IMG/VR virus record: IMGVR_UViG_2690315994_000022
Direction: 5' to 3' (one strand)
Length of the DNA stretch: 6,119 bases
From: a virus
Lineage: Duplodnaviria; Heunggongvirae; Uroviricota; Caudoviricetes
Shown here: positions 1-6,119 of the stretch, piece by piece
Layout: every line of letters starts with the position of its first letter
Position numbering within the stretch: position 1 is the first letter of the stretch
Made by a program: the position numbers and the translations under genes
Notes under the pieces: generated by a model
Told to the model about the DNA's origin: nothing
Database searches by the model: none
The model's input: the letters and a program-made list of their open reading frames with translations, nothing else

Positions 1-432
1 TATATTTTCAGTGCCGATAAAAATGCGTTTTTCCCTGTGGAGCTTAAAATCGCTTATCAGGAATCCGGCGAATGGCCCGGTGATGGAATCGAAATTGACG
101 ACACTGTTGCCGCCGAATTTATGAAGGAAGCACCAGAAGGAAAATACAGAGGTGTCATCGACGGAATGCCTACATGGATTGATATTCCACCGCCAACTCA
201 TGAGGAACAAATTGCCGCAGCCGAACTGGAAAAGCAGCAATTGATTAATCAGGTCAACGAATACATAAACAGTAAGCAATGGCCTGGTAAAGCGGCGATT
301 GGTCGCCTGAAAGGTGAGGAACTGGCGCAATATAATTTGTGGCTGGATTATCTGGACGCACTGGAGCTGGTCGATACTTCCGGTGCGCCAGATATTGAAT
401 GGCCTACGCCTCCGGCAGTTCAGGCCAGATGA
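1..432 (+). CDS. tail fibre assembly protein (Tfa/U-type), 5'-truncated by the window edge; inverted partner copy (tfa')
   Basis: Frame 1 is open from base 1 to TGA at 430..432 (the supplied ORF starts at GTG 37 but the frame is open upstream). C-terminus LWLDYLDALELVDTSGAPDIEWPTPP matches the C-terminus of the minus-strand Tfa (AVLDYIDAVTATDTSTAPDVIWPELP), the conserved tail of phage tail-fibre assembly chaperones. Convergent with and overlapping the other tfa by 29 bp. Confidence 0.8.
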   Translation, partial: YIFSADKNAFFPVELKIAYQESGEWPGDGIEIDDTVAAEFMKEAPEGKYRGVIDGMPTWIDIPPPTHEEQIAAAELEKQQLINQVNEYINSKQWPGKAAIGRLKGEELAQYNLWLDYLDALELVDTSGAPDIEWPTPPAVQAR

Positions 433-997
433 CGTCCGGCGCTGTGCTGGTATCTGTTGCCGTCACCGCGTCAATATAATCCAGCACAGCGTTAAGTCGG
501 GTGTTTTCTGGCTGCGTCAGCTTCCGCCCGGCCTGTAATTTCAGTTGAATCAGACTGATGGAAGCCATTGCAGCATCAATCAGCGACTGGCGCTGTGCTT
601 CTGCCGCTTCTACTGCGGCGCTATGCGGTGCCTCGGTATCCGTCACCCATTTCTCACCATCCCATTTATCGTATGGCGTTAACGGTGAAAGCGTGACATA
701 ACCGTCTTTGATGGCACCGATATAATCCACTGTAACAGCTGCGCCATTTTCAGTTGAGTAAACGGTCTCATTGCGATGGTCTTCTTCATGGCTCCATCCC
801 TTACCCGTAAATACAGCCACTTTTCCCGGAATGTTTTCGCTCGGGTCAATACCAGTGGAACAGGCGGGCATACTTACGCCAGTATTAATATATTCATCAG
901 ACCAGCCGGTATATTCATACGTTACTGCATTATAATAAAAACAACGCATATCGCCCGGCACTGTAGCCAGCCCATTTTCATCAAAAACAGGTTTCAT
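404..997 (-). CDS. tail fibre assembly protein (Tfa)
   Basis: 197-aa ORF with ATG at 997..995 sharing one base with the tail-fibre stop (TAATG overlap). Same conserved C-terminal motif as tfa'. Sits directly downstream of the tail-fibre gene, as in Mu S-U, P2 H-G and e14 stf-tfa. Confidence 0.85.
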   Translation of the reverse strand: MKPVFDENGLATVPGDMRCFYYNAVTYEYTGWSDEYINTGVSMPACSTGIDPSENIPGKVAVFTGKGWSHEEDHRNETVYSTENGAAVTVDYIGAIKDGYVTLSPLTPYDKWDGEKWVTDTEAPHSAAVEAAEAQRQSLIDAAMASISLIQLKLQAGRKLTQPENTRLNAVLDYIDAVTATDTSTAPDVIWPELPEA

Positions 998-2100
998 TAT
1001 TTAGCCCTCACCAGAAAGTTAAATGCAATATTTCGTGGACGGGTTTCTGTACCTACATTTCCACTAATTTCACCATAACGTTTAACACTACGAGAGCTAA
1101 GAGCTCGTAGTGAGGAAGGCACCTTAAGACCGGGTTCGTCCGTTTTAACTATTCCCCCGTCACCATATGTAGCCAGTATTCCTGGGTTTACTCCTTCCCG
1201 TGCACTTCCTGCGGCAAGCCCGTCCCCCGTCCACAATTCCATATTGTGTGCATGATCCATAATTGTGTGTGATTGCCCTGAAAGTAGGGTACGTCCGACA
1301 TCAATCCCGCGCCCATCATCCCAGATACGAATGAAATCACCGCGTGCGTCAGGTAATGCCAGCGCCGGAAACACTTTCGCCAGCACAGGGTAATCAGTGG
1401 CAGAGAATTTCGCGCCGTTGAACTTCAAAAACACCATACCGGACCAGCTATCGATTACGGTATCTGGCATTGCAGCGGACGGCCAGAAGAACGGAACGCC
1501 AATAGCTGGAGCTCCTTCTCCCAAACCAAGGTTTTCGAGAGCCGTTTTCACCGTGCCATCCGATTTGATATCACCAAACGGATTCTTGCGGCTCAGGTAT
1601 TCAACAGCAAACCCCGATCCCAGCAATTCAACAAANNNNNNNNNNNNNNNNNNNNNNNNNNNNNNNNNNNNNNNNNNNNNNNNNNNNNNNNNNNNNNNNN
1701 NNNNNNNNNNNNNNNNNNNNNNNNNNNNNNNNNNNNNNNNNNNNNNNNNNNNNNNNAAACCAAGGTTTTCGAGAGCCGTTTTCACCGTGCCATCCGATTT
1801 GATATCACCAAACGGATTCTTGCGGCTCAGGTATTCAACAGCAAACCCCGATCCCAGCAATTCAACAAAACCGGGCAGATCACCATTATCAAGCACATCC
1901 CGTTGCGTTTTATCACTTACAAACTGGGCCAGAGCTGCAGCAATAAAGCTGGCCTGCCGAATAACCTTATTGACTTGCGCACTGGAGGCTTTCCCTGCTG
2001 TAAATCCGGATAAAAGCGCGGGCAACGCTTCCCATTCCTCCTGCGATATAACATTGGCATTTCGATCCGTTGCAAACGCTTTAAAGTCATTTTTCGTCAT
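997..2100 (-). CDS. tail fibre protein: constant N-terminal part plus exchangeable tail-collar-type C-terminal part; length inflated by a scaffold gap and a 234-bp duplication
   Basis: Start preferred at ATG 2100..2098 (MTKNDF...), forming an ATGA overlap with the upstream stop and preceded by GGGGAG about 10 nt away; the supplied ORF start at 2118 has its AGGAG too close. The C-terminal part (...[41 protein letters not shown]...) resembles the phage tail-collar motif. A crossover site lies in frame at 1516..1541. The ORF contains 121 N and a duplicated 78-codon block; the real product is probably about 289 aa. Confidence 0.75.
1516..1541. other. 26-bp gix/hix/cix/pix-type recombination crossover site (site 1) inside the tail-fibre ORF
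   Basis: TTCTCCCAAACC-AA-GGTTTTCGAGAG: two imperfect inverted 12-bp half-sites around a 2-bp core, with the AAACC-NN-GGTTT centre typical of Hin/Gin/Cin/Pin sites. Lies at the junction between the N-terminal and collar-type parts of the tail fibre, and a Pin invertase is encoded in the window. Confidence 0.65.
1523..1635. repeat. 113-bp exact direct repeat, copy A (left of the N gap)
   Basis: Compared base by base with 1757..1869: identical. Starts at the AAACC of crossover site 1 and ends at the first N. Confidence 0.95.
1636..1756. other. run of 121 N: scaffold/assembly gap, not biological sequence
   Basis: Uninterrupted n characters; flanked by identical 113-bp sequence on both sides. 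Confidence 0.98.
1757..1869. repeat. 113-bp exact direct repeat, copy B (right of the N gap)
   Basis: Identical to 1523..1635. The post-gap sequence begins inside the crossover site, at its AAACC. Confidence 0.95.
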
Positions 2101-2780
2101 CAGAGTAATACTCCCCATGCTCCTACATCAAAACCACTGATGAATTCGTTATCCATATCAAAACCAAAAAATTTTGAGCCTTCCGATGGGGTTTCCACCG
2201 AAGGTGTTTCAATGCCACCCGCCCATACCCCGGCGGCTTTTACTGTGAGATACCCCTGTTTAATTGCCGCAATTAACTCACGCGATACATCTGAAATATC
2301 AGTATCAGGAAAGACCCAGACCGATATCGTCATGTCCTGGTTATCGACTATCTGCATTCGCAGCCCGGATCCTGCTGTTGCCGCGTCAAGAATTGCCAGA
2401 AGCGAATCATTCCGTCCGTCCCAGTTATTAATCGCAATCTTCGCTTTAAGAATGACACGATAAGTTTCATCGCTGAGATACATGTATCCTGAATCAGGAT
2501 CGTATGGTCCCTGCCATACCCCCTGATCATATCCAAGCCCGTCGGTATCCCAGCTGAAATAGACACCTGAGATAGGCTGGCTGACAACACGGCTACGTCC
2601 GATCCACAATCCAAGAATGTCAAGTTGCACACCAACCGCAGAGTCAATATCAAATGCAGTAATCAGCCCTCTGGTGGCAGCCGCAACATCAATAAGTGGC
2701 CGGGTCATCAGATCAACATGCGCAAGAAATTTAGGTTTGGTGGCGTGGTAGTTCGTGATTAGTTCGGTGTATTTGCTCAT
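2100..2780 (-). CDS. phage tail/baseplate protein, Mu gp48 / YmfQ-like
   Basis: 226-aa ORF between the baseplate-J-like gene and the tail-fibre gene, the position occupied by Mu gp48, e14 YmfQ and P2 gpI. ATGA overlaps at both ends (2780..2777 and 2102..2098). Family assignment is by position and general resemblance, not a search. Confidence 0.6.
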   Translation of the reverse strand: MSKYTELITNYHATKPKFLAHVDLMTRPLIDVAAATRGLITAFDIDSAVGVQLDILGLWIGRSRVVSQPISGVYFSWDTDGLGYDQGVWQGPYDPDSGYMYLSDETYRVILKAKIAINNWDGRNDSLLAILDAATAGSGLRMQIVDNQDMTISVWVFPDTDISDVSRELIAAIKQGYLTVKAAGVWAGGIETPSVETPSEGSKFFGFDMDNEFISGFDVGAWGVLL

Positions 2781-3976
2781 GACTCCACCGTTATAACGAT
2801 ATTTTCCGGGGTACAGGACACAGATTCGTTGTATCTGATATCAATGTTTGATGACGACAAAGCCCCCGGGGATTTCCCAATCGTCAGTTCCTGAATATCG
2901 TAATAGCGTGCATTCCCGCCACTCACCACGCCAAGATTCGCCGGTGAGTAAATGCGACTTAAAAGGACCGAATCACCAATCATCAGACTATTGATATAGT
3001 CGGAAATAGCCTGCTGGATCTGCTGCCCTATCTGTGAGGTATAACCCGTAAAAACTTGTAATTTGATCCGGGCATAAACAGGCACATCACTGGAACGCGA
3101 GAATTTGATTACATGGGGATTGCCGTATTTATCCGGAACCGTAACGGATGTTGTACCGTGAGTGGCTGTCCCCTGGCCTTTATTTCCTCTGATAGCCTGA
3201 GCAATATCCGTCACATCACCGCCATCCACAATTACAGCAACAGAGTGTGGCGGTAACCCGTTACCGTCCTCCGAACCAGTATCGTTTTCATAGAGTTTGT
3301 GGCGGGTTACACCGGTAACATTAGAAACAGCACCATCCAGTGCTTCAAATGGGGTTATTGATGGCAACGCAACACTTTGCGACTGGCGGATACGTAACTC
3401 CGCATCAGTTTCTGCTGGAGTGCCTACAGTAGCTGCAGCAGGATTGGTTACCGAAACCCAGCCACGGGTTGGCGTATTAATTTCAGTGATAGTTCCAGCC
3501 AGCGCCGCCACTGCACCACTGACGGAACATGTTGCGGTCACCATCACTGTACCATCCACGCCGACCACCACTGAAGCAGGCAAACGCCATATCACATTAT
3601 TACTGTCTTTCACGCTGCCATTAATGATGGTTGTTCCGGCAGTTCCTGTAAGAAGCAAATCAACCGTAGAATTCGTCGCGCCTTTACGTGAAATACCATT
3701 TATTTTCACGTTACTGGTCAGTGCAGCCCCATAGCCGGTTGCCGGTGAAAAACAGTTGTAGACAGTTATCGCCATATTATTGGCATCATGAATCGCCAGC
3801 GCCATCAGAGCCACCATCTGGCCGTCTTTGCTGTCCGGTTCGAGGTAGGCATCACTGCCATAAATCTGCTGAAAATAGCTAATCAGGGTGCTGAGTATCG
3901 TCTGATAATCAGGCGCACTGATCCCCTCCGCGGTTACCTTTGCAGATAAACCGAGAGAATCAAGGTTCAGAGCCAT
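2777..3976 (-). CDS. baseplate J-like protein (Mu gp47 / P2 gpJ family)
   Basis: 399-aa ORF; size, composition and position immediately upstream of the gp48-like and tail-fibre genes fit the baseplate J family. GGAGG lies just upstream of ATG 3976. The stop overlaps the next gene's start (ATGA). Confidence 0.8.
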   Translation of the reverse strand: MALNLDSLGLSAKVTAEGISAPDYQTILSTLISYFQQIYGSDAYLEPDSKDGQMVALMALAIHDANNMAITVYNCFSPATGYGAALTSNVKINGISRKGATNSTVDLLLTGTAGTTIINGSVKDSNNVIWRLPASVVVGVDGTVMVTATCSVSGAVAALAGTITEINTPTRGWVSVTNPAAATVGTPAETDAELRIRQSQSVALPSITPFEALDGAVSNVTGVTRHKLYENDTGSEDGNGLPPHSVAVIVDGGDVTDIAQAIRGNKGQGTATHGTTSVTVPDKYGNPHVIKFSRSSDVPVYARIKLQVFTGYTSQIGQQIQQAISDYINSLMIGDSVLLSRIYSPANLGVVSGGNARYYDIQELTIGKSPGALSSSNIDIRYNESVSCTPENIVITVES

Positions 3977-4141
3977 TACGCCTCCGATGTAACAGTCGTT
4001 ATTCCATAAAGAGTGTCGATTTCAGCGGAAAACATGACACGTCGGGTCGTGGTATCCACCGTCGTATTGAAAGAGAGGATTGATTTAACGCCCNAAACCA
4101 ACGTTTATGAAAATGCAGAAATAACGAGCAAATGGCATCAT
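3976..4141 (-). pseudogene. short ORF or 3' gene remnant upstream of J that reads through crossover site 2; frame depends on the ambiguous base at 4094
   Basis: With the n at 4094 omitted, the minus strand reads MMPFARYFCIFINVGLGVKSILSFNTTVDTTTRRVMFSAEIDTLYGITTVTSEA and stops at TAA 3978..3976, sharing one base with the J start (TAATG). With n kept as a real base the frame stops at 4087..4085. No convincing RBS at its 5' end. Confidence 0.3.
4088..4113. other. second gix/pix-type crossover site (site 2), 55 bp upstream of pin; contains an ambiguous base
   Basis: ACGCCCnAAACC-AA-CGTTTATGAAAA has the same AAACC-AA-(C/G)GTTT centre as site 1. If the n is dropped, the left arm AACGCCCAAACC matches site 1's TTCTCCCAAACC at 9 of 12 positions. 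Its position just upstream of the invertase gene is the canonical one for the invertase-proximal site in Gin/Cin/Pin systems. Confidence 0.55.
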
Positions 4142-4154
4142 TCCTGCTTTTGTC

Positions 4155-4160
4155 AGGGAG
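4155..4160 (+). promoter_or_regulatory. Shine-Dalgarno sequence for pin
   Basis: AGGGAG, 7 nt upstream of ATG 4168. Confidence 0.5.
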
Positions 4161-4167
4161 ATCTACC

Positions 4168-4722
4168 ATGCTTATTGGCTATGTACGTGTGTCAACAAAT
4201 GACCAGAACACAGATCTACAACGTAATGCGCTGAACTGTGCAGGATGCGAGCTGATTTTTGAAGACAAGATAAGCGGTACAAAGTCCGAAAGGCCGGGAC
4301 TGAAAAAACTGCTCAGGACATTATCGGCAGGTGATACGCTGGTGGTCTGGAAACTGGACCGACTGGGGCGCAGTATGCGGCATCTTGTCGTGCTGGTGGA
4401 GGAGTTGCGCGAACGAGGCATCAACTTTCGTAGTCTGACGGATTCAATTGATACCAGTACCCCAATGGGGCGCTTTTTCTTTCATGTGATGGGTGCCCTG
4501 GCTGAAATGGAACGTGAACTGATTGTTGAACGAACAAAAGCAGGACTGGAAGCTGCTCGCGCACAGGGACGAATTGGGGGACGTCGTCCCAAACTTACAC
4601 CAGAACAATGGGCGCAGGCCGGGCGATTAATTGCATCAGGCGTTCCTCGCCAGAAGGTGGCGATCATCTATGATGTTGGCGTATCGACTTTGTATAAGAA
4701 GTTTCCGGTCGGAGATAAATGA
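4168..4722 (+). CDS. pin: serine DNA invertase of the Pin/Gin/Hin/Cin (Din) family
   Basis: 184-aa product starting MLIGYVRVSTNDQNTDLQRNAL, with the catalytic-serine motif YVRVSTNDQ, the conserved WKLDRLGRS and GALAEMERELI blocks, and a C-terminal helix-turn-helix (VAIIYDVGVSTLYKK). Close to Gin/PinE as remembered. Start chosen at ATG 4168 rather than the supplied ORF's 4132 because of the RBS and family N-terminus. Confidence 0.95.
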   Translation: MLIGYVRVSTNDQNTDLQRNALNCAGCELIFEDKISGTKSERPGLKKLLRTLSAGDTLVVWKLDRLGRSMRHLVVLVEELRERGINFRSLTDSIDTSTPMGRFFFHVMGALAEMERELIVERTKAGLEAARAQGRIGGRRPKLTPEQWAQAGRLIASGVPRQKVAIIYDVGVSTLYKKFPVGDK

Positions 4723-5027
4723 AACCGTAGCACGTCGTATGCAAGAACGTGCCACGGCTGGCTGATGGACGTTCGATAGCGCGAGTTTGAATGAAAATCA
4801 GCCGGAGATGATTTTACATAATTGCTACGGAATTATTCAATACAGGAATTGCTTGTGTATGCATGGATTGACCTGAAATATTCCCGAAAATTTCTCTAAA
4901 AAACTCGAAAAAAATGGTAACTAATTGAATGTATTAATATGTAATAGTACGTGTTAGAGATTAAAAGATGAGCATAAATTTATTTAACACATTAATTCTA
5001 AAAGATTTTGTTGTTTGTTGACGAAAA

Positions 5028-5052
5028 CAGGAATCGTGTTCGGTCTCTTTTT
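5028..5052 (+). ncRNA. sdsR: probable 3'-terminal fragment of sRNA SdsR (RyeB), i.e. candidate prophage attachment-site core
   Basis: CAGGAATCGTGTTCGGTCTCTTTTT matches, with one mismatch, what I recall as the SdsR terminator 3' half (..CAGGAAUCGUAUUCGGUCUCUUUUU). The upstream arm of the terminator stem is not complementary here, so only the 3' part is present. From memory, not searched. Confidence 0.35.
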
Positions 5053-5171
5053 ATCTGTTAAAAGCCAGAAGCATTTCCTTCGCTGACTTTATAGTCAACC
5101 ATAACACACACTCTACTGTCTGAGTCCAGCGTTTTTTAACATTCTTGTTAAGATTATGTGATCTTTAGCGC

Positions 5172-5177
5172 GGGAGG
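5172..5177 (+). promoter_or_regulatory. Shine-Dalgarno sequence for pphA
   Basis: GGGAGG, 9 nt upstream of ATG 5187. Confidence 0.5.
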
Positions 5178-5186
5178 AAAATATTG

Positions 5187-5843
5187 ATGAAACAGCCTGC
5201 GCCCGTTTATCAGAGAATTGCGGGTCATCAATGGCGACATATCTGGCTTTCTGGCGATATACACGGTTGTCTTGAGCAGTTGCGCCGCAAATTATGGCAT
5301 TGTCGTTTTGATCCGTGGCGAGATTTACTTATCTCAGTGGGAGACGTTATCGATCGTGGGCCGCAAAGTTTACGTTGTCTGCAGTTACTGGAACAACATT
5401 GGGTTCGTGCGGTAAGAGGCAATCATGAACAGATGGCGATGGATGCGCTGGCATCCCAGCAGATGTCTTTGTGGTTGATGAATGGCGGCGACTGGTTTAT
5501 TGCGCTGGCAGATAATCAACAGAAACAAGCGAAAACGGCGCTGGAAAAATGTCAGCATTTGCCCTTTATTCTTGAAGTACACAGCCGCACCGGCAAACAT
5601 GTTATTGCTCATGCCGATTATCCAGATGATGTTTATGAATGGCAAAAGGACGTTGATTTGCATCAGGTCTTGTGGAGCCGCTCGCGATTAAGTGAACGCC
5701 AAAAAGGGCAGGGAATTACAGGTGCTGATCATTTCTGGTTTGGTCATACACCGTTGCGCCATCGCGTGGATATTGGCAACCTGCATTATATTGATACCGG
5801 CGCTGTCTTTGGGGGCGAACTGACTTTCGTGCAATTGCAATAA
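5187..5843 (+). CDS. pphA: serine/threonine protein phosphatase 1 (PPP-family metallophosphatase)
   Basis: 218-aa product MKQPAPVYQRIAGHQWRHIWLSGDIHGC... with the metallophosphatase motifs GDIHG, GDVIDRG and GNHE; recognised as E. coli PphA/PrpA. Start at ATG 5187 (the supplied ORF begins at TTG 5184). Confidence 0.9.
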   Translation: MKQPAPVYQRIAGHQWRHIWLSGDIHGCLEQLRRKLWHCRFDPWRDLLISVGDVIDRGPQSLRCLQLLEQHWVRAVRGNHEQMAMDALASQQMSLWLMNGGDWFIALADNQQKQAKTALEKCQHLPFILEVHSRTGKHVIAHADYPDDVYEWQKDVDLHQVLWSRSRLSERQKGQGITGADHFWFGHTPLRHRVDIGNLHYIDTGAVFGGELTFVQLQ

Positions 5844-6035
5844 TTAAAAATCACCATACTCCTGTGCTGGTCGCCAGAAACCATCTATAAAATCCTCAAT
5901 CGGAAAACAACCGCCATGACGGATCCGTTGATCGCTCATAGAATAAAGACACTGCTGTTCCGTGTTGTAGACATCCACAACAATATCTTCACAACCGCCA
6001 TCCAGGTAGCAAACAAAAAGTACCAGCGCGAACAT
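5844..6035 (-). CDS. yebW: small conserved protein, YebW-like (63 aa); the ORF stays open to the window edge so the start is uncertain
   Basis: Minus-strand ORF ending at TAA 5846..5844, directly abutting the pphA stop. An internal ATG at 6035..6033 gives a 63-aa product (MFALVLFVCYLDGGCEDIVVDV...EYGDF), the size I recall for YebW beside pphA in E. coli K-12. Symbol is from memory. Confidence 0.45.
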   Translation of the reverse strand: MFALVLFVCYLDGGCEDIVVDVYNTEQQCLYSMSDQRIRHGGCFPIEDFIDGFWRPAQEYGDF

Positions 6036-6119
6036 TTCATCCCCGAAGTGTGGTGCCGTACCGTTAAGTTTAGGAGAGATTTTACAACGGGGGAATAACC
6101 AGGACAAATAACCCGCCAT

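What the first reader, a model, noticed from the sequence alone, without database searches (positions are those of the whole stretch)
4723..5186. Prophage/chromosome junction in an AT-rich spacer with a possible SdsR 3'-end fragment
Phage-type genes end at pin and core chromosomal genes start at pphA. The 464-bp spacer is AT-rich, and 5028..5052 resembles the 3' half of the SdsR (RyeB) terminator without its 5' stem arm, as expected for the short target-gene duplication left at one prophage end. The ryeA/ryeB locus next to pphA is, as I recall, a described insertion hot spot in enterobacteria. This would place the att core at about 5028..5052.
Basis: partly seen in the sequence, partly recalled or inferred. 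Interest (0 to 1): 0.55.

Follow-up and report, generated by a model that had tools for sequence, protein, structure and literature searches.

The report
Prophage end inside the sdsR terminator

Summary
Confirmed. Window 4723-5186 is the pin-pphA spacer (GC 0.36). All 5426 complete E. coli genomes match it from 5022 rightwards; only 228 carry the left 300 bp. In K-12, 5027-5052 is the last 26 nt of sdsR (31 of 32 identical from 5022). The 5' stem arm is replaced and the hairpin no longer folds (-5.7 vs -15.8 kcal/mol).

A four-way comparison fits the textbook POP' x BOB' pattern. It used attB of K-12, attP of phage record PP818812.1, attL of strain RM8082 and attR of this window. Phage and host polymorphisms on either side confine strand exchange to 11 bp, ACAGGAATCGT (5027-5037), which is the terminator loop.

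In RM8082, whose spacer is 100% identical, the other end of the ~42 kb prophage has xis, an integrase with a lambda-type arm-binding domain, and an intact sdsR. The window itself does not reach that end.

The spacer also holds the phage P arm with candidate arm-type sites (4872-4913). The host part holds the ryeA start site (5090) and promoter, now cut off from the rest of ryeA. pphA is cut off from the sdsR promoter that normally drives it.

This insertion hot spot was described in Salmonella (Balbontin 2008). Interest is low.

The parts
4168..4722 (+). pin-type serine invertase, the last phage gene before the junction
   Evidence: Pfam Resolvase 1.5e-51 plus HTH_7. Annotated pinE in the same position in complete genome NZ_CP172331.1.
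4723..4817 (.). Phage sequence conserved among lambdoid phages, with an imperfect hairpin at about 4725-4757. Possibly a terminator for leftward (int-direction) transcripts. Function not established.
   Evidence: 77-83% identity to HK97, phi80, HK022-like and Stx phages. In HK97 it abuts the annotated sib site. Folds at -15.5 kcal/mol, z -1.5. Sub-threshold Rfam CssrB 3'-end hit.
4818..5026 (.). P arm of the phage attachment site (the phage-derived half of attR)
   Evidence: Collinear with the attP P arm of PP818812.1. 4860-4935 is nearly invariant across 35 distinct variants of this arm.
4872..4913 (+). Candidate arm-type integrase binding sites: CCTGAAATAT 4872-4881, CCCGAAAATT 4883-4892, CTCGAAAAAA 4904-4913. 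They lie 160 to 119 bp left of the loop centre.
   Evidence: The motif CYCGAAAWWT clusters here. It recurs in the P' arm of attP as tandem copies at +56 and +66, with a degenerate third copy about 10 bp further on, seen only by eye in the attP sequence. The positions are close to the two lambda arm sites I located. The RM8082 integrase has the lambda Arm DNA-binding domain. Other integrase lineages at this site carry their own triple repeat. Binding is inferred, not shown.
5027..5037 (.). Crossover segment ACAGGAATCGT: the sdsR terminator loop AGGAATC plus two closing pairs. Strand exchange must lie inside it.
   Evidence: In the window, position 5026 is phage-type (A) and 5038 is host-type (G). 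The reciprocal pattern is seen at attL in RM8082 and in 10 attL/attR pairs from IMG/VR contigs, 9 of them informative at position 5038. It is identical in attP, attB, attL and attR.
5022..5052 (+). Orphan 3' fragment of sdsR/ryeB: the distal terminator arm and U-tract, with a non-functional hairpin
   Evidence: 30 of 31 nt identical to K-12 sdsR nt 70-100. No stable hairpin. No Rfam SdsR hit.
5038..5090 (-). Host-derived 5' leader of RyeA/SraC, separated by the prophage from the rest of ryeA
   Evidence: Start site placed at 5090 from primer BHIA+10R (CGCTGACTTTATAGTCAACC = window 5081-5100) in PMC6610125. This is consistent with the published RyeA length of 261-270 nt up to the yebY terminator T-run. 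Rfam RyeA partial hit 5056-4936.
5091..5170 (-). Region that contains the sigma-70 ryeA promoter (-80 to -1 of the published promoter fragment)
   Evidence: Assigned by position from PMC6610125. Identical to K-12. The simple consensus scan did not pick out hexamers here.
5187..5843 (+). pphA, the first host gene. It is now separated from the sdsR promoter by the whole prophage.
   Evidence: Pfam Metallophos. RefSeq annotation of the identical region. Dependence of pphA on the sdsR promoter comes from PMC6610125.

Best explanation
The spacer is the attR (P-O-B') junction of a temperate phage with a lambda/HK022-family tyrosine integrase. The phage inserted by site-specific recombination into the Rho-independent terminator of the host small-RNA gene sdsR (ryeB).

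Shown here: the phage attP carries an imperfect copy of the terminator (32 of 37 nt). Exchange occurred inside the 11-bp ACAGGAATCGT that contains the 7-nt terminator loop (window 5027-5037). The window therefore reads phage P arm (4723-5026), then crossover segment, then host DNA (from 5038). In related complete genomes, the reciprocal junction about 42 kb away keeps a full sdsR whose distal stem arm and U-tract are supplied by the phage, followed by int and xis.

Inferred, not shown: the loop AGGAATC is the overlap region, and the two stem arms serve as inverted core-type sites. The CYCGAAAWWT repeats at 4872-4913, and three more in the P' arm, would be the arm-type sites bound by the integrase N-terminal domain, as in lambda.

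Inferred consequences in the lysogen:
- The ryeA promoter and first ~55-64 nt of RyeA (5090 leftwards) now fire into the phage arm instead of across sdsR.
- The ryeA body sits downstream of int at the other end.
- pphA has lost the sdsR promoter that normally transcribes it by read-through.
- SdsR acquires a phage-type 3' end (stem G to A; tail CUCUUUUU to CUUUUUUU).
For: Host homology starts at 5022 in all 5426 complete E. coli genomes, and only 228 carry the whole spacer.

attB is uninterrupted in 5191 of 5426 genomes. The attL-type sequence is present in 228 genomes, the same number as the attR type.

The K-12 sdsR and ryeA coordinates come from Rfam and the alignment.

RM8082 has a 100% identical spacer. 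Its ~42 kb prophage ends in xis, int and intact sdsR next to yebY.

The four-way attP/attB/attL/attR alignment uses the attP of phage record PP818812.1, whose integrase is 98.9% identical to that of RM8082.

Ten attL/attR pairs from the same IMG/VR contigs or genomes show the same segregation of flanking polymorphisms; nine of them are informative at position 5038.

The integrase has Phage_integrase, Phage_int_M and lambda Arm-DNA-bind_1 domains and is 41% identical to HK022 Int.

Arm-motif clusters lie at lambda-like distances, and the P arm is strongly conserved at 4860-4935.

Of 117 attL junctions in IMG/VR, 114 have an Int homologue (40-100% identity) about 90 nt beyond the terminator. The examples I inspected each carry their own triple tandem repeat.

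Literature: the last 23 bp of ryeB are the att site of phage phiW104 in Salmonella, and lysogeny lowers ryeA and raises ryeB (PMC7380047). pphA is transcribed by read-through from the sdsR promoter (PMC6610125).
Against: The window ends within the tail genes, so the integrase end and the completeness of this particular prophage are not seen.

The window is a scaffold with an N gap and a single n at 4094. The tail-gene block to the left of that n is inverted relative to complete genomes. Contiguity of pin, spacer and pphA is nevertheless verified in complete genomes.

The arm-type and IHF-type sites rest on motif resemblance only. The arm motif was defined after looking at the sequence, and IHF-like matches are no more frequent than chance.

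The regulatory consequences are extrapolated from K-12 and Salmonella experiments, not measured in an E. coli lysogen.

The primary paper (PMC2395037) could not be read.
Confidence: 0.93

Rival explanations
1. The junction is real, but the element in this genome is a decayed remnant or island fragment (tail genes plus pin only) rather than a complete, excisable prophage.
For: The window shows only late genes and pin. Remnants and altered copies do occur at this site. RM8082 has frameshifted tail genes and a truncated pin. IMG/VR contig L083 has lost the P' arm repeats. L022 carries a short remnant in tandem with a second prophage.
Against: The same number of complete genomes (228) carries the attR type and the attL type. 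Every paired contig examined had both ends. The genes in the window are intact apart from the assembly gaps.
Confidence: 0.2
2. Strand exchange takes place further right, in the distal stem arm or U-tract, as the published '23 bp' Salmonella core might suggest.
For: attP and attB share homology across the whole terminator (32 of 37). In hosts whose sdsR has the A/U-rich variant, the identical block would be longer (Rfam consensus; host flank of L010).
Against: In E. coli lysogens the base just right of 5037 is host-type G at attR and phage-type A at attL, in RM8082 and in 9 informative pairs. This is impossible if exchange lay to the right of 5038.
Confidence: 0.04
3. The resemblance to sdsR is chance, or the spacer is simply a variable intergenic region or an assembly artefact with no site-specific recombination involved.
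For: The window is a gapped scaffold. Rfam does not call SdsR in it.
Against: There is 160 nt of perfect identity to K-12 beginning inside the terminator. An independent phage genome supplies the exact attP. Reciprocal junctions are found in hundreds of genomes. The pin-spacer-pphA order is present in closed genomes.
Confidence: 0.01

Closest known systems
Prophage phiW104 and other islands inserted in the ryeB (sdsR) terminator of Salmonella enterica (Balbontin et al. 2008, J Bacteriol 190:4075)
   Same: Same host target: the last ~23 bp of ryeB/sdsR, which is internal to ryeA. Same outcome: sdsR is kept at one end, and the 5' part and promoter of ryeA are split off. The site is described there as a hot spot (summaries in PMC7380047, and PMC3603311).
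   Different: The host here is E. coli, whose attB differs from the phage copy at 5 of 37 positions. That difference is what allows the crossover to be narrowed to 11 bp. I could not read the primary paper. I have no phiW104 sequence, so relatedness of the phages and integrases is untested.
Bacteriophage lambda / HK022 integration system (heterobivalent tyrosine integrase, attP with arm-type and core-type sites, Xis, IHF)
   Same: The integrase is 39-41% identical to HK022 and 434 Int and has the lambda arm-binding domain. xis lies next to int. The repeats sit about 150 and 128 bp left of the core and at about +56, +66 and +78 on the right. In lambda I located P2 at -111 and P'1 at +54. A perfect IHF consensus, AATCAATTAGTTG, lies between the core and the P' repeats in attP (sequence shown).
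   Different: The target is an sRNA terminator hairpin rather than the gal-bio attB. The arm motif sequence is different, and all copies lie on one strand here. No biochemistry has been done.
Phage integration into the 3' ends of tRNA, tmRNA and sRNA genes with reconstitution of the gene by attP (Williams 2002; Bobay et al. 2013, PMC3603311)
   Same: The crossover lies in the loop of a symmetric stem-loop. The phage carries a replacement 3' end, so the RNA gene survives at attL, and a short partial duplicate is left at attR, as in this window.
   Different: The duplicate here is imperfect. The locus is bidirectional, so the antisense gene ryeA and the downstream gene pphA are not reconstituted.

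Membership tests
attR junction of a lambda-type (tyrosine integrase) prophage | DNA left of a short common segment matches one arm of a phage attP; DNA right of it matches the uninterrupted host attB | tested here: met
   Four-way alignment with the attP of PP818812.1 and the attB of K-12. The host homology boundary at 5022-5027 is seen in 5426 genomes.
attR junction of a lambda-type (tyrosine integrase) prophage | A reciprocal attL junction with the other attP arm, adjacent to int/xis, at the far end of the same element | tested here: met
   Met in related complete genomes and contigs: RM8082, Shigella flexneri and E. coli ECMA0423, and 10 paired IMG/VR junctions. It cannot be seen in the 6.1 kb window itself.
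attR junction of a lambda-type (tyrosine integrase) prophage | Integrase of the tyrosine recombinase family with an N-terminal arm-binding domain | tested here: met
   The RM8082 integrase hits Phage_integrase (1.4e-16), Phage_int_M and Arm-DNA-bind_1 (29.7 bits against a cut-off of 22). It is 41% identical to HK022 Int.
attR junction of a lambda-type (tyrosine integrase) prophage | Repeated arm-type binding sites in both attP arms | tested here: inconclusive
   The motif CYCGAAAWWT clusters at 4872-4913 and in the P' arm. The region is highly conserved, and other lineages carry analogous triple repeats. However, the motif was defined post hoc and binding is untested.
attR junction of a lambda-type (tyrosine integrase) prophage | Integrase-catalysed integration and excision at this site | not testable with these tools
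   Needs induction with junction PCR, or in vitro recombination.
SdsR/RyeB sRNA gene (Rfam RF00111) | Full-length match at or above the gathering score, with an intact terminator hairpin | tested here: not met
   No RF00111 hit in the window at E<=1. Only the last 26-31 nt are present. The hairpin is lost. The window holds a fragment of the gene, not the gene.
SraC/RyeA sRNA gene (Rfam RF00101) | Match at or above the gathering score of 37 bits over the whole model | tested here: not met
   25.4 bits, E=0.12. Only about the first 35 model positions align convincingly. The promoter and 5' leader are present, the body is absent.
ryeB-terminator insertion hot spot (Balbontin 2008) | Foreign DNA joined to the chromosome within the last ~23 bp of ryeB, splitting ryeA | tested here: met
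   The crossover at 5027-5037 overlaps the 5' end of the last 23 bp of sdsR (5030-5052). The definition is taken from the secondary source PMC7380047, because the primary paper is not held.
ryeB-terminator insertion hot spot (Balbontin 2008) | The site is used repeatedly by different elements | tested here: met
In E. coli, 235 of 5426 complete genomes have an interrupted attB, and 228 carry this phage's arms.

The most novel reading that the evidence does not exclude
Integration acts as a reversible regulatory switch on the SdsR/RyeA/pphA circuit in E. coli. Four changes would follow. First, the sigma-70 ryeA promoter left at attR (start site at 5090) produces a chimeric RNA that runs through the phage P arm, ends near the conserved hairpin at about 4725-4757, and no longer counteracts SdsR. 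Second, SdsR gains a phage-supplied terminator with a Watson-Crick pair and a 7-U tail. Third, pphA loses its sdsR-promoter read-through transcription. Fourth, all of this is restored on excision. The ryeA-down/ryeB-up part is already reported for Salmonella phiW104. The pphA uncoupling and the altered SdsR 3' end would be new.
Probability: 0.35. Interest if true: 0.45.

Novelty: already known. Interest (0 to 1): 0.2.

Why it matters
This is mainly a clean confirmation. It shows that a bare-sequence reading correctly located a prophage boundary, and it sharpens the crossover to 11 bp. Practically, it gives an exact right-hand boundary (5026/5027 to 5037/5038) for annotating this prophage family, which sits in about 4% of complete E. 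coli genomes. It also flags that lysogens have a split ryeA, a slightly altered SdsR 3' end and a pphA gene detached from its promoter. That could matter for anyone comparing SdsR-, RyeA- or PphA-dependent phenotypes between strains. It does not open a new question.

Tried and rejected
(1) An 11-nt direct repeat, AATACAGGAAT at 4839-4849, copies the host-type left side of the core. I considered it a second core or the relic of an earlier insertion. It is not conserved in the attP of PP818812.1 (AACTCATAGAT) and is variable among 35 P-arm variants. I treat it as chance.

(2) I compared 4723-4817 with the lambda and HK97 sib/tI region. It is a conserved lambdoid element that abuts the annotated sib of HK97 but does not align with the lambda sib hairpin itself. 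Its function stays open.

(3) The IHF consensus WATCAANNNNTTR gave two one-mismatch hits in the P arm (4918-4930 and 4985-4997, minus strand). The window-wide count equals the chance expectation (8 against 7.25).

(4) The consensus promoter and terminator scan of 4600-5250 did not find the published ryeA promoter or any terminator. I placed the ryeA start site from a published primer instead.

(5) An exact-pattern scan of one genome per species for the attR 26-mer found nothing. The integrase scan of the same collection found only a Shigella flexneri genome and an E. coli genome. The wider host range therefore rests on IMG/VR flanks only.

(6) The primary hot-spot paper PMC2395037 is not held, and no Salmonella chromosome sequence was available for a direct alignment.

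(7) My k-mer clustering of the P' arms was too permissive and merged 105 of 117 sequences. I used integrase identity classes instead.

(8) No complete E. coli genome contains window 1760-5186 as one collinear piece. This led to the scaffold observation below, not to a biological rearrangement.

Full report
**What the window holds**

Most of the window is phage DNA on the left and host DNA on the right.
- 37-432 (+): partial second tail-fibre assembly gene.
- 404-997 (-): tail-fibre assembly gene.
- 997-2118 (-): tail fibre.
- 2100-2780 (-): DUF2612.
- 2777-3976 (-): baseplate J.
- 4168-4722 (+): pin-type serine invertase (Resolvase + HTH_7).
- 4723-5186: the 464-bp spacer under study.
- 5187-5843 (+): pphA (Metallophos).
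- 5844-6035 (-): yebW (DUF1482).

The spacer has GC 0.36, dropping to 0.22-0.30 around 4850-5050, against 0.475 for the whole window.

**Checking the observation**

I searched the spacer against 5426 complete E. coli genomes. Every genome matched, but in almost all the match begins at query position 300, which is window 5022. Only 228 genomes carry the left 300 bp.

In K-12, Rfam places sdsR/ryeB at L001 1432-1531 (114 bits) and the antisense ryeA/sraC model at 1391-1535 (175 bits) in the yebY-pphA intergenic region. Alignment gives perfect identity of the window to K-12 from 5027 through pphA, and 30 of 31 identical from 5022, with A instead of T at 5026. So 5027-5052 is the last 26 nt of sdsR.

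The window itself gives no SdsR hit. It gives only a sub-threshold antisense RyeA 5' fragment at 5056-4936 (25.4 bits, E 0.12).

The 5' arm of the terminator is replaced. The RNA folds at -5.7 kcal/mol, no better than shuffles. The intact terminators of K-12 and of a lysogen's attL fold at -15.8 kcal/mol (z -3.5 and -3.9).

**The other end of the prophage**

Strain RM8082 has a spacer 100% identical to the window. Its chromosome shows a prophage of about 42 kb running leftwards from pphA. In order it holds:
- tail, head and terminase genes;
- lysis genes;
- a Rac-like early region (recE, recT, ralR, kilR, ydaT);
- excisionase;
- a tyrosine integrase;
- then an intact sdsR (118 bits) and ryeA body (179 bits) beside yebY.

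The same int-sdsR adjacency is seen in a Shigella flexneri chromosome and another E. coli chromosome.

The attL-type sequence occurs in 228 complete genomes, the same number as the attR-type spacer. attB is uninterrupted in 5191 of 5426 genomes. About 4% of complete E. coli genomes are therefore occupied at this site, nearly all by this phage family.

**The four att sites**

A phage record, PP818812.1, is labelled Actinobacillus phage vB_Apl-pPE4. Between its last tail gene and its integrase it carries a region that matches window 4730-5053 at 85.8% and then continues into the RM8082 attL arm. Its integrase is 98.9% identical to that of RM8082. This gives attP directly:

| Site | Source | Sequence |
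|---|---|---|
| attP | PP818812.1 | TTGACGAAA-ACAGGAATCGT-ATTCGGTCTTTTTTTAATTGTATTT |
| attB | K-12 | GGACCGAAT-ACAGGAATCGT-GTTCGGTCTCTTTTTATCTGTTAAA |
| attL | RM8082 | GGACCGAAT-ACAGGAATCGT-ATTCGGTCTTTTTTTAATTGTATTT |
| attR | window | TTGACGAAA-ACAGGAATCGT-GTTCGGTCTCTTTTTATCTGTTAAA |

This is the classical POP' x BOB' to BOP' + POB' pattern. attP and E. coli attB are 32 of 37 identical over 5022-5058. The mismatches on both sides segregate cleanly, so exchange must lie in the 11-bp ACAGGAATCGT (5027-5037).

The same segregation is seen in 10 attL/attR pairs taken from the same IMG/VR contig or genome; nine of them, with an E. coli-type flank, are informative at position 5038. The segment is the 7-nt terminator loop AGGAATC plus two closing base pairs.

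By analogy with lambda-family integrases, I infer that the loop is the 7-bp overlap and that the stem arms are the inverted core-type sites. This has not been shown.

The real crossover is at its left edge.

**Anatomy of the phage half of the spacer**

The integrase has the catalytic, central and lambda arm-binding domains and is 39-41% identical to HK022 and 434 Int.

The motif CYCGAAAWWT occurs at 4872-4881, 4883-4892 and 4904-4913, which is -160 to -119 from the loop centre. In attP it occurs as tandem copies at +56 and +66, with a degenerate third copy at about +78 that I read by eye. In lambda I located P2 at -111 and P'1 at +54 with the published consensus.

Across 35 distinct variants of this P arm, 4860-4935 is almost invariant. 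In IMG/VR, 114 of 117 attL junctions at this terminator have an Int homologue (40-100% identity) about 90 nt beyond it. The divergent examples I inspected each carry their own triple tandem repeat there, for example GTCCGAAAA x3 and CACGAAA x3. This is what arm-type sites co-evolving with their integrase should look like.

A perfect IHF consensus lies between the core and the P' repeats in attP (sequence). IHF-like matches in the window's P arm are not above chance.

The leftmost 95 nt (4723-4817), with a hairpin at about 4725-4757, is shared at 77-83% identity with HK97, phi80 and many Stx phages. In HK97 it abuts the annotated sib site. Its role is open; it may be a terminator for leftward transcripts.

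**The host half of the spacer and likely consequences**

Choi et al. (PMC6610125) report three relevant results:
- SdsR is made from a sigma-S promoter.
- RyeA (about 261-270 nt) is made from a convergent sigma-70 promoter located beyond the sdsR terminator.
- pphA mRNA arises mainly by read-through from the sdsR promoter.

Their primer BHIA+10R equals window 5081-5100, which puts RyeA +1 at 5090. This fits the distance of 264-270 nt to the T-run of the yebY terminator in K-12.

The window therefore keeps the ryeA promoter and the first ~55-64 nt of RyeA, which now read into phage DNA. The body of ryeA lies about 42 kb away, downstream of int. pphA is separated from the sdsR promoter by the whole prophage.

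At attL, SdsR ends in phage-derived sequence, with G to A in the stem and CUCUUUUU to CUUUUUUU in the tail.

For Salmonella phiW104, lysogeny is reported to lower ryeA and raise ryeB transcription (PMC7380047). For E. coli these effects are inference.

**Comparison with what is known**

The use of the last ~23 bp of ryeB as an attachment site, and the locus as an insertion hot spot, were published for Salmonella by Balbontin et al. 2008. I know this through PMC7380047 and PMC3603311, because the primary paper is not held. The site also appears as a named target ('RyeB') in an island catalogue for Citrobacter (PMC10111431).

The mechanism is the lambda paradigm combined with the familiar habit of integrating into the 3' stem-loop of an RNA gene. 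I therefore rate the finding as already known. What this analysis adds is the 11-bp crossover window in E. coli, the attP from a sequenced phage, the candidate arm sites, and occupancy figures.

**Caveats**

The window is a scaffold. It has a 121-N gap (1636-1756) flanked by 113-nt duplicates that start at a Pin crossover sequence, and a single n at 4094. The tail-gene block to the left of that n is inverted relative to complete genomes. This does not affect the pin-spacer-pphA segment, which is collinear with closed genomes.

The integrase end of this particular prophage is not in the window.

**Verdict**

Confidence in the attR reading is 0.93. Interest is 0.2.

Noticed in passing
window 1523-1869 and 4094: The window is a gapped scaffold. 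A 121-N run (1636-1756) is flanked by identical 113-nt copies (1523-1635 = 1757-1869) that begin at a Pin crossover-type sequence, CCCAAACCAAGG. A single n at 4094 joins the middle of a baseplate-module gene to the pin-proximal crossover site (TTCTCCCAAACCAACGTTTATGAAAA in closed genomes). As a result, block 1-4093 is inverted relative to pin when compared with complete genomes. This is most likely an assembly or scaffolding effect at the invertible tail-fibre segment. A real inversion is not excluded.
   Followed up: partly
window 4700-4817: The sequence just after pin, with a hairpin at about 4725-4757, is conserved (77-83%) in HK97, phi80, HK022-like and many Stx phages. It lies next to the annotated sib site of HK97. 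It also gives a sub-threshold hit to the 3' end of Rfam CssrB, a 'chromosome-encoded Shigella sRNA' (31.7 bits against a gathering score of 76). A full-length CssrB copy lies at the same locus in IMG/VR contig L022 (1894-2076). CssrB may therefore be a transcript of a phage remnant at this att site.
   Followed up: partly
window 4839-4849: AATACAGGAAT repeats exactly the host-type sequence spanning the left edge of the core (K-12 CCGAATACAGGAATCG), 185 bp upstream in the phage arm. It is not conserved in the attP of PP818812.1 and is variable among P-arm variants, so it is probably chance.
   Followed up: yes
L004 (PP818812.1 39978-47508): The record named 'Actinobacillus phage vB_Apl-pPE4' has an integrase 98.9% identical to that of an E. 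coli prophage, and an attP built on the enterobacterial sdsR terminator. The stated host (Actinobacillus pleuropneumoniae) looks doubtful.
   Followed up: partly
L003 22388-22487 (attL of RM8082), compared with L001 1432-1531: In lysogens the SdsR 3' end is phage-derived. The stem U-G wobble becomes U-A and the tail changes from CUCUUUUU to CUUUUUUU. The sRNA sequence itself therefore differs by two nucleotides from that of non-lysogens. The phage version is closer to the Rfam consensus than K-12 is.
   Followed up: partly
L083 (IMGVR_UViG_2728369554_000022), attL: In this attL the P' arm is deleted between two GGTCTTTTTT repeats, which removes the three candidate arm-type sites. The prophage may be unable to excise.
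   Followed up: no
L022 (IMGVR_UViG_2690316286_000019) 504-2365; also L027 and L031: These contigs show P-O-P' type junctions inside chromosomal context. In L022, sdsR lies at 504-600, followed by a ~1.7 kb remnant and then P arm, core, P' arm and int. This indicates tandem or successive insertions at the same site, as expected for a hot spot.
   Followed up: partly
window 6119 (right end): Most IMG/VR contigs that carry this attR end exactly 1100 nt to the right of the start of GACGAAAAC..., as the window does (5020 to 6119). The window's right end is therefore probably a shared contig or prophage-prediction boundary, not a biological feature.
   Followed up: no
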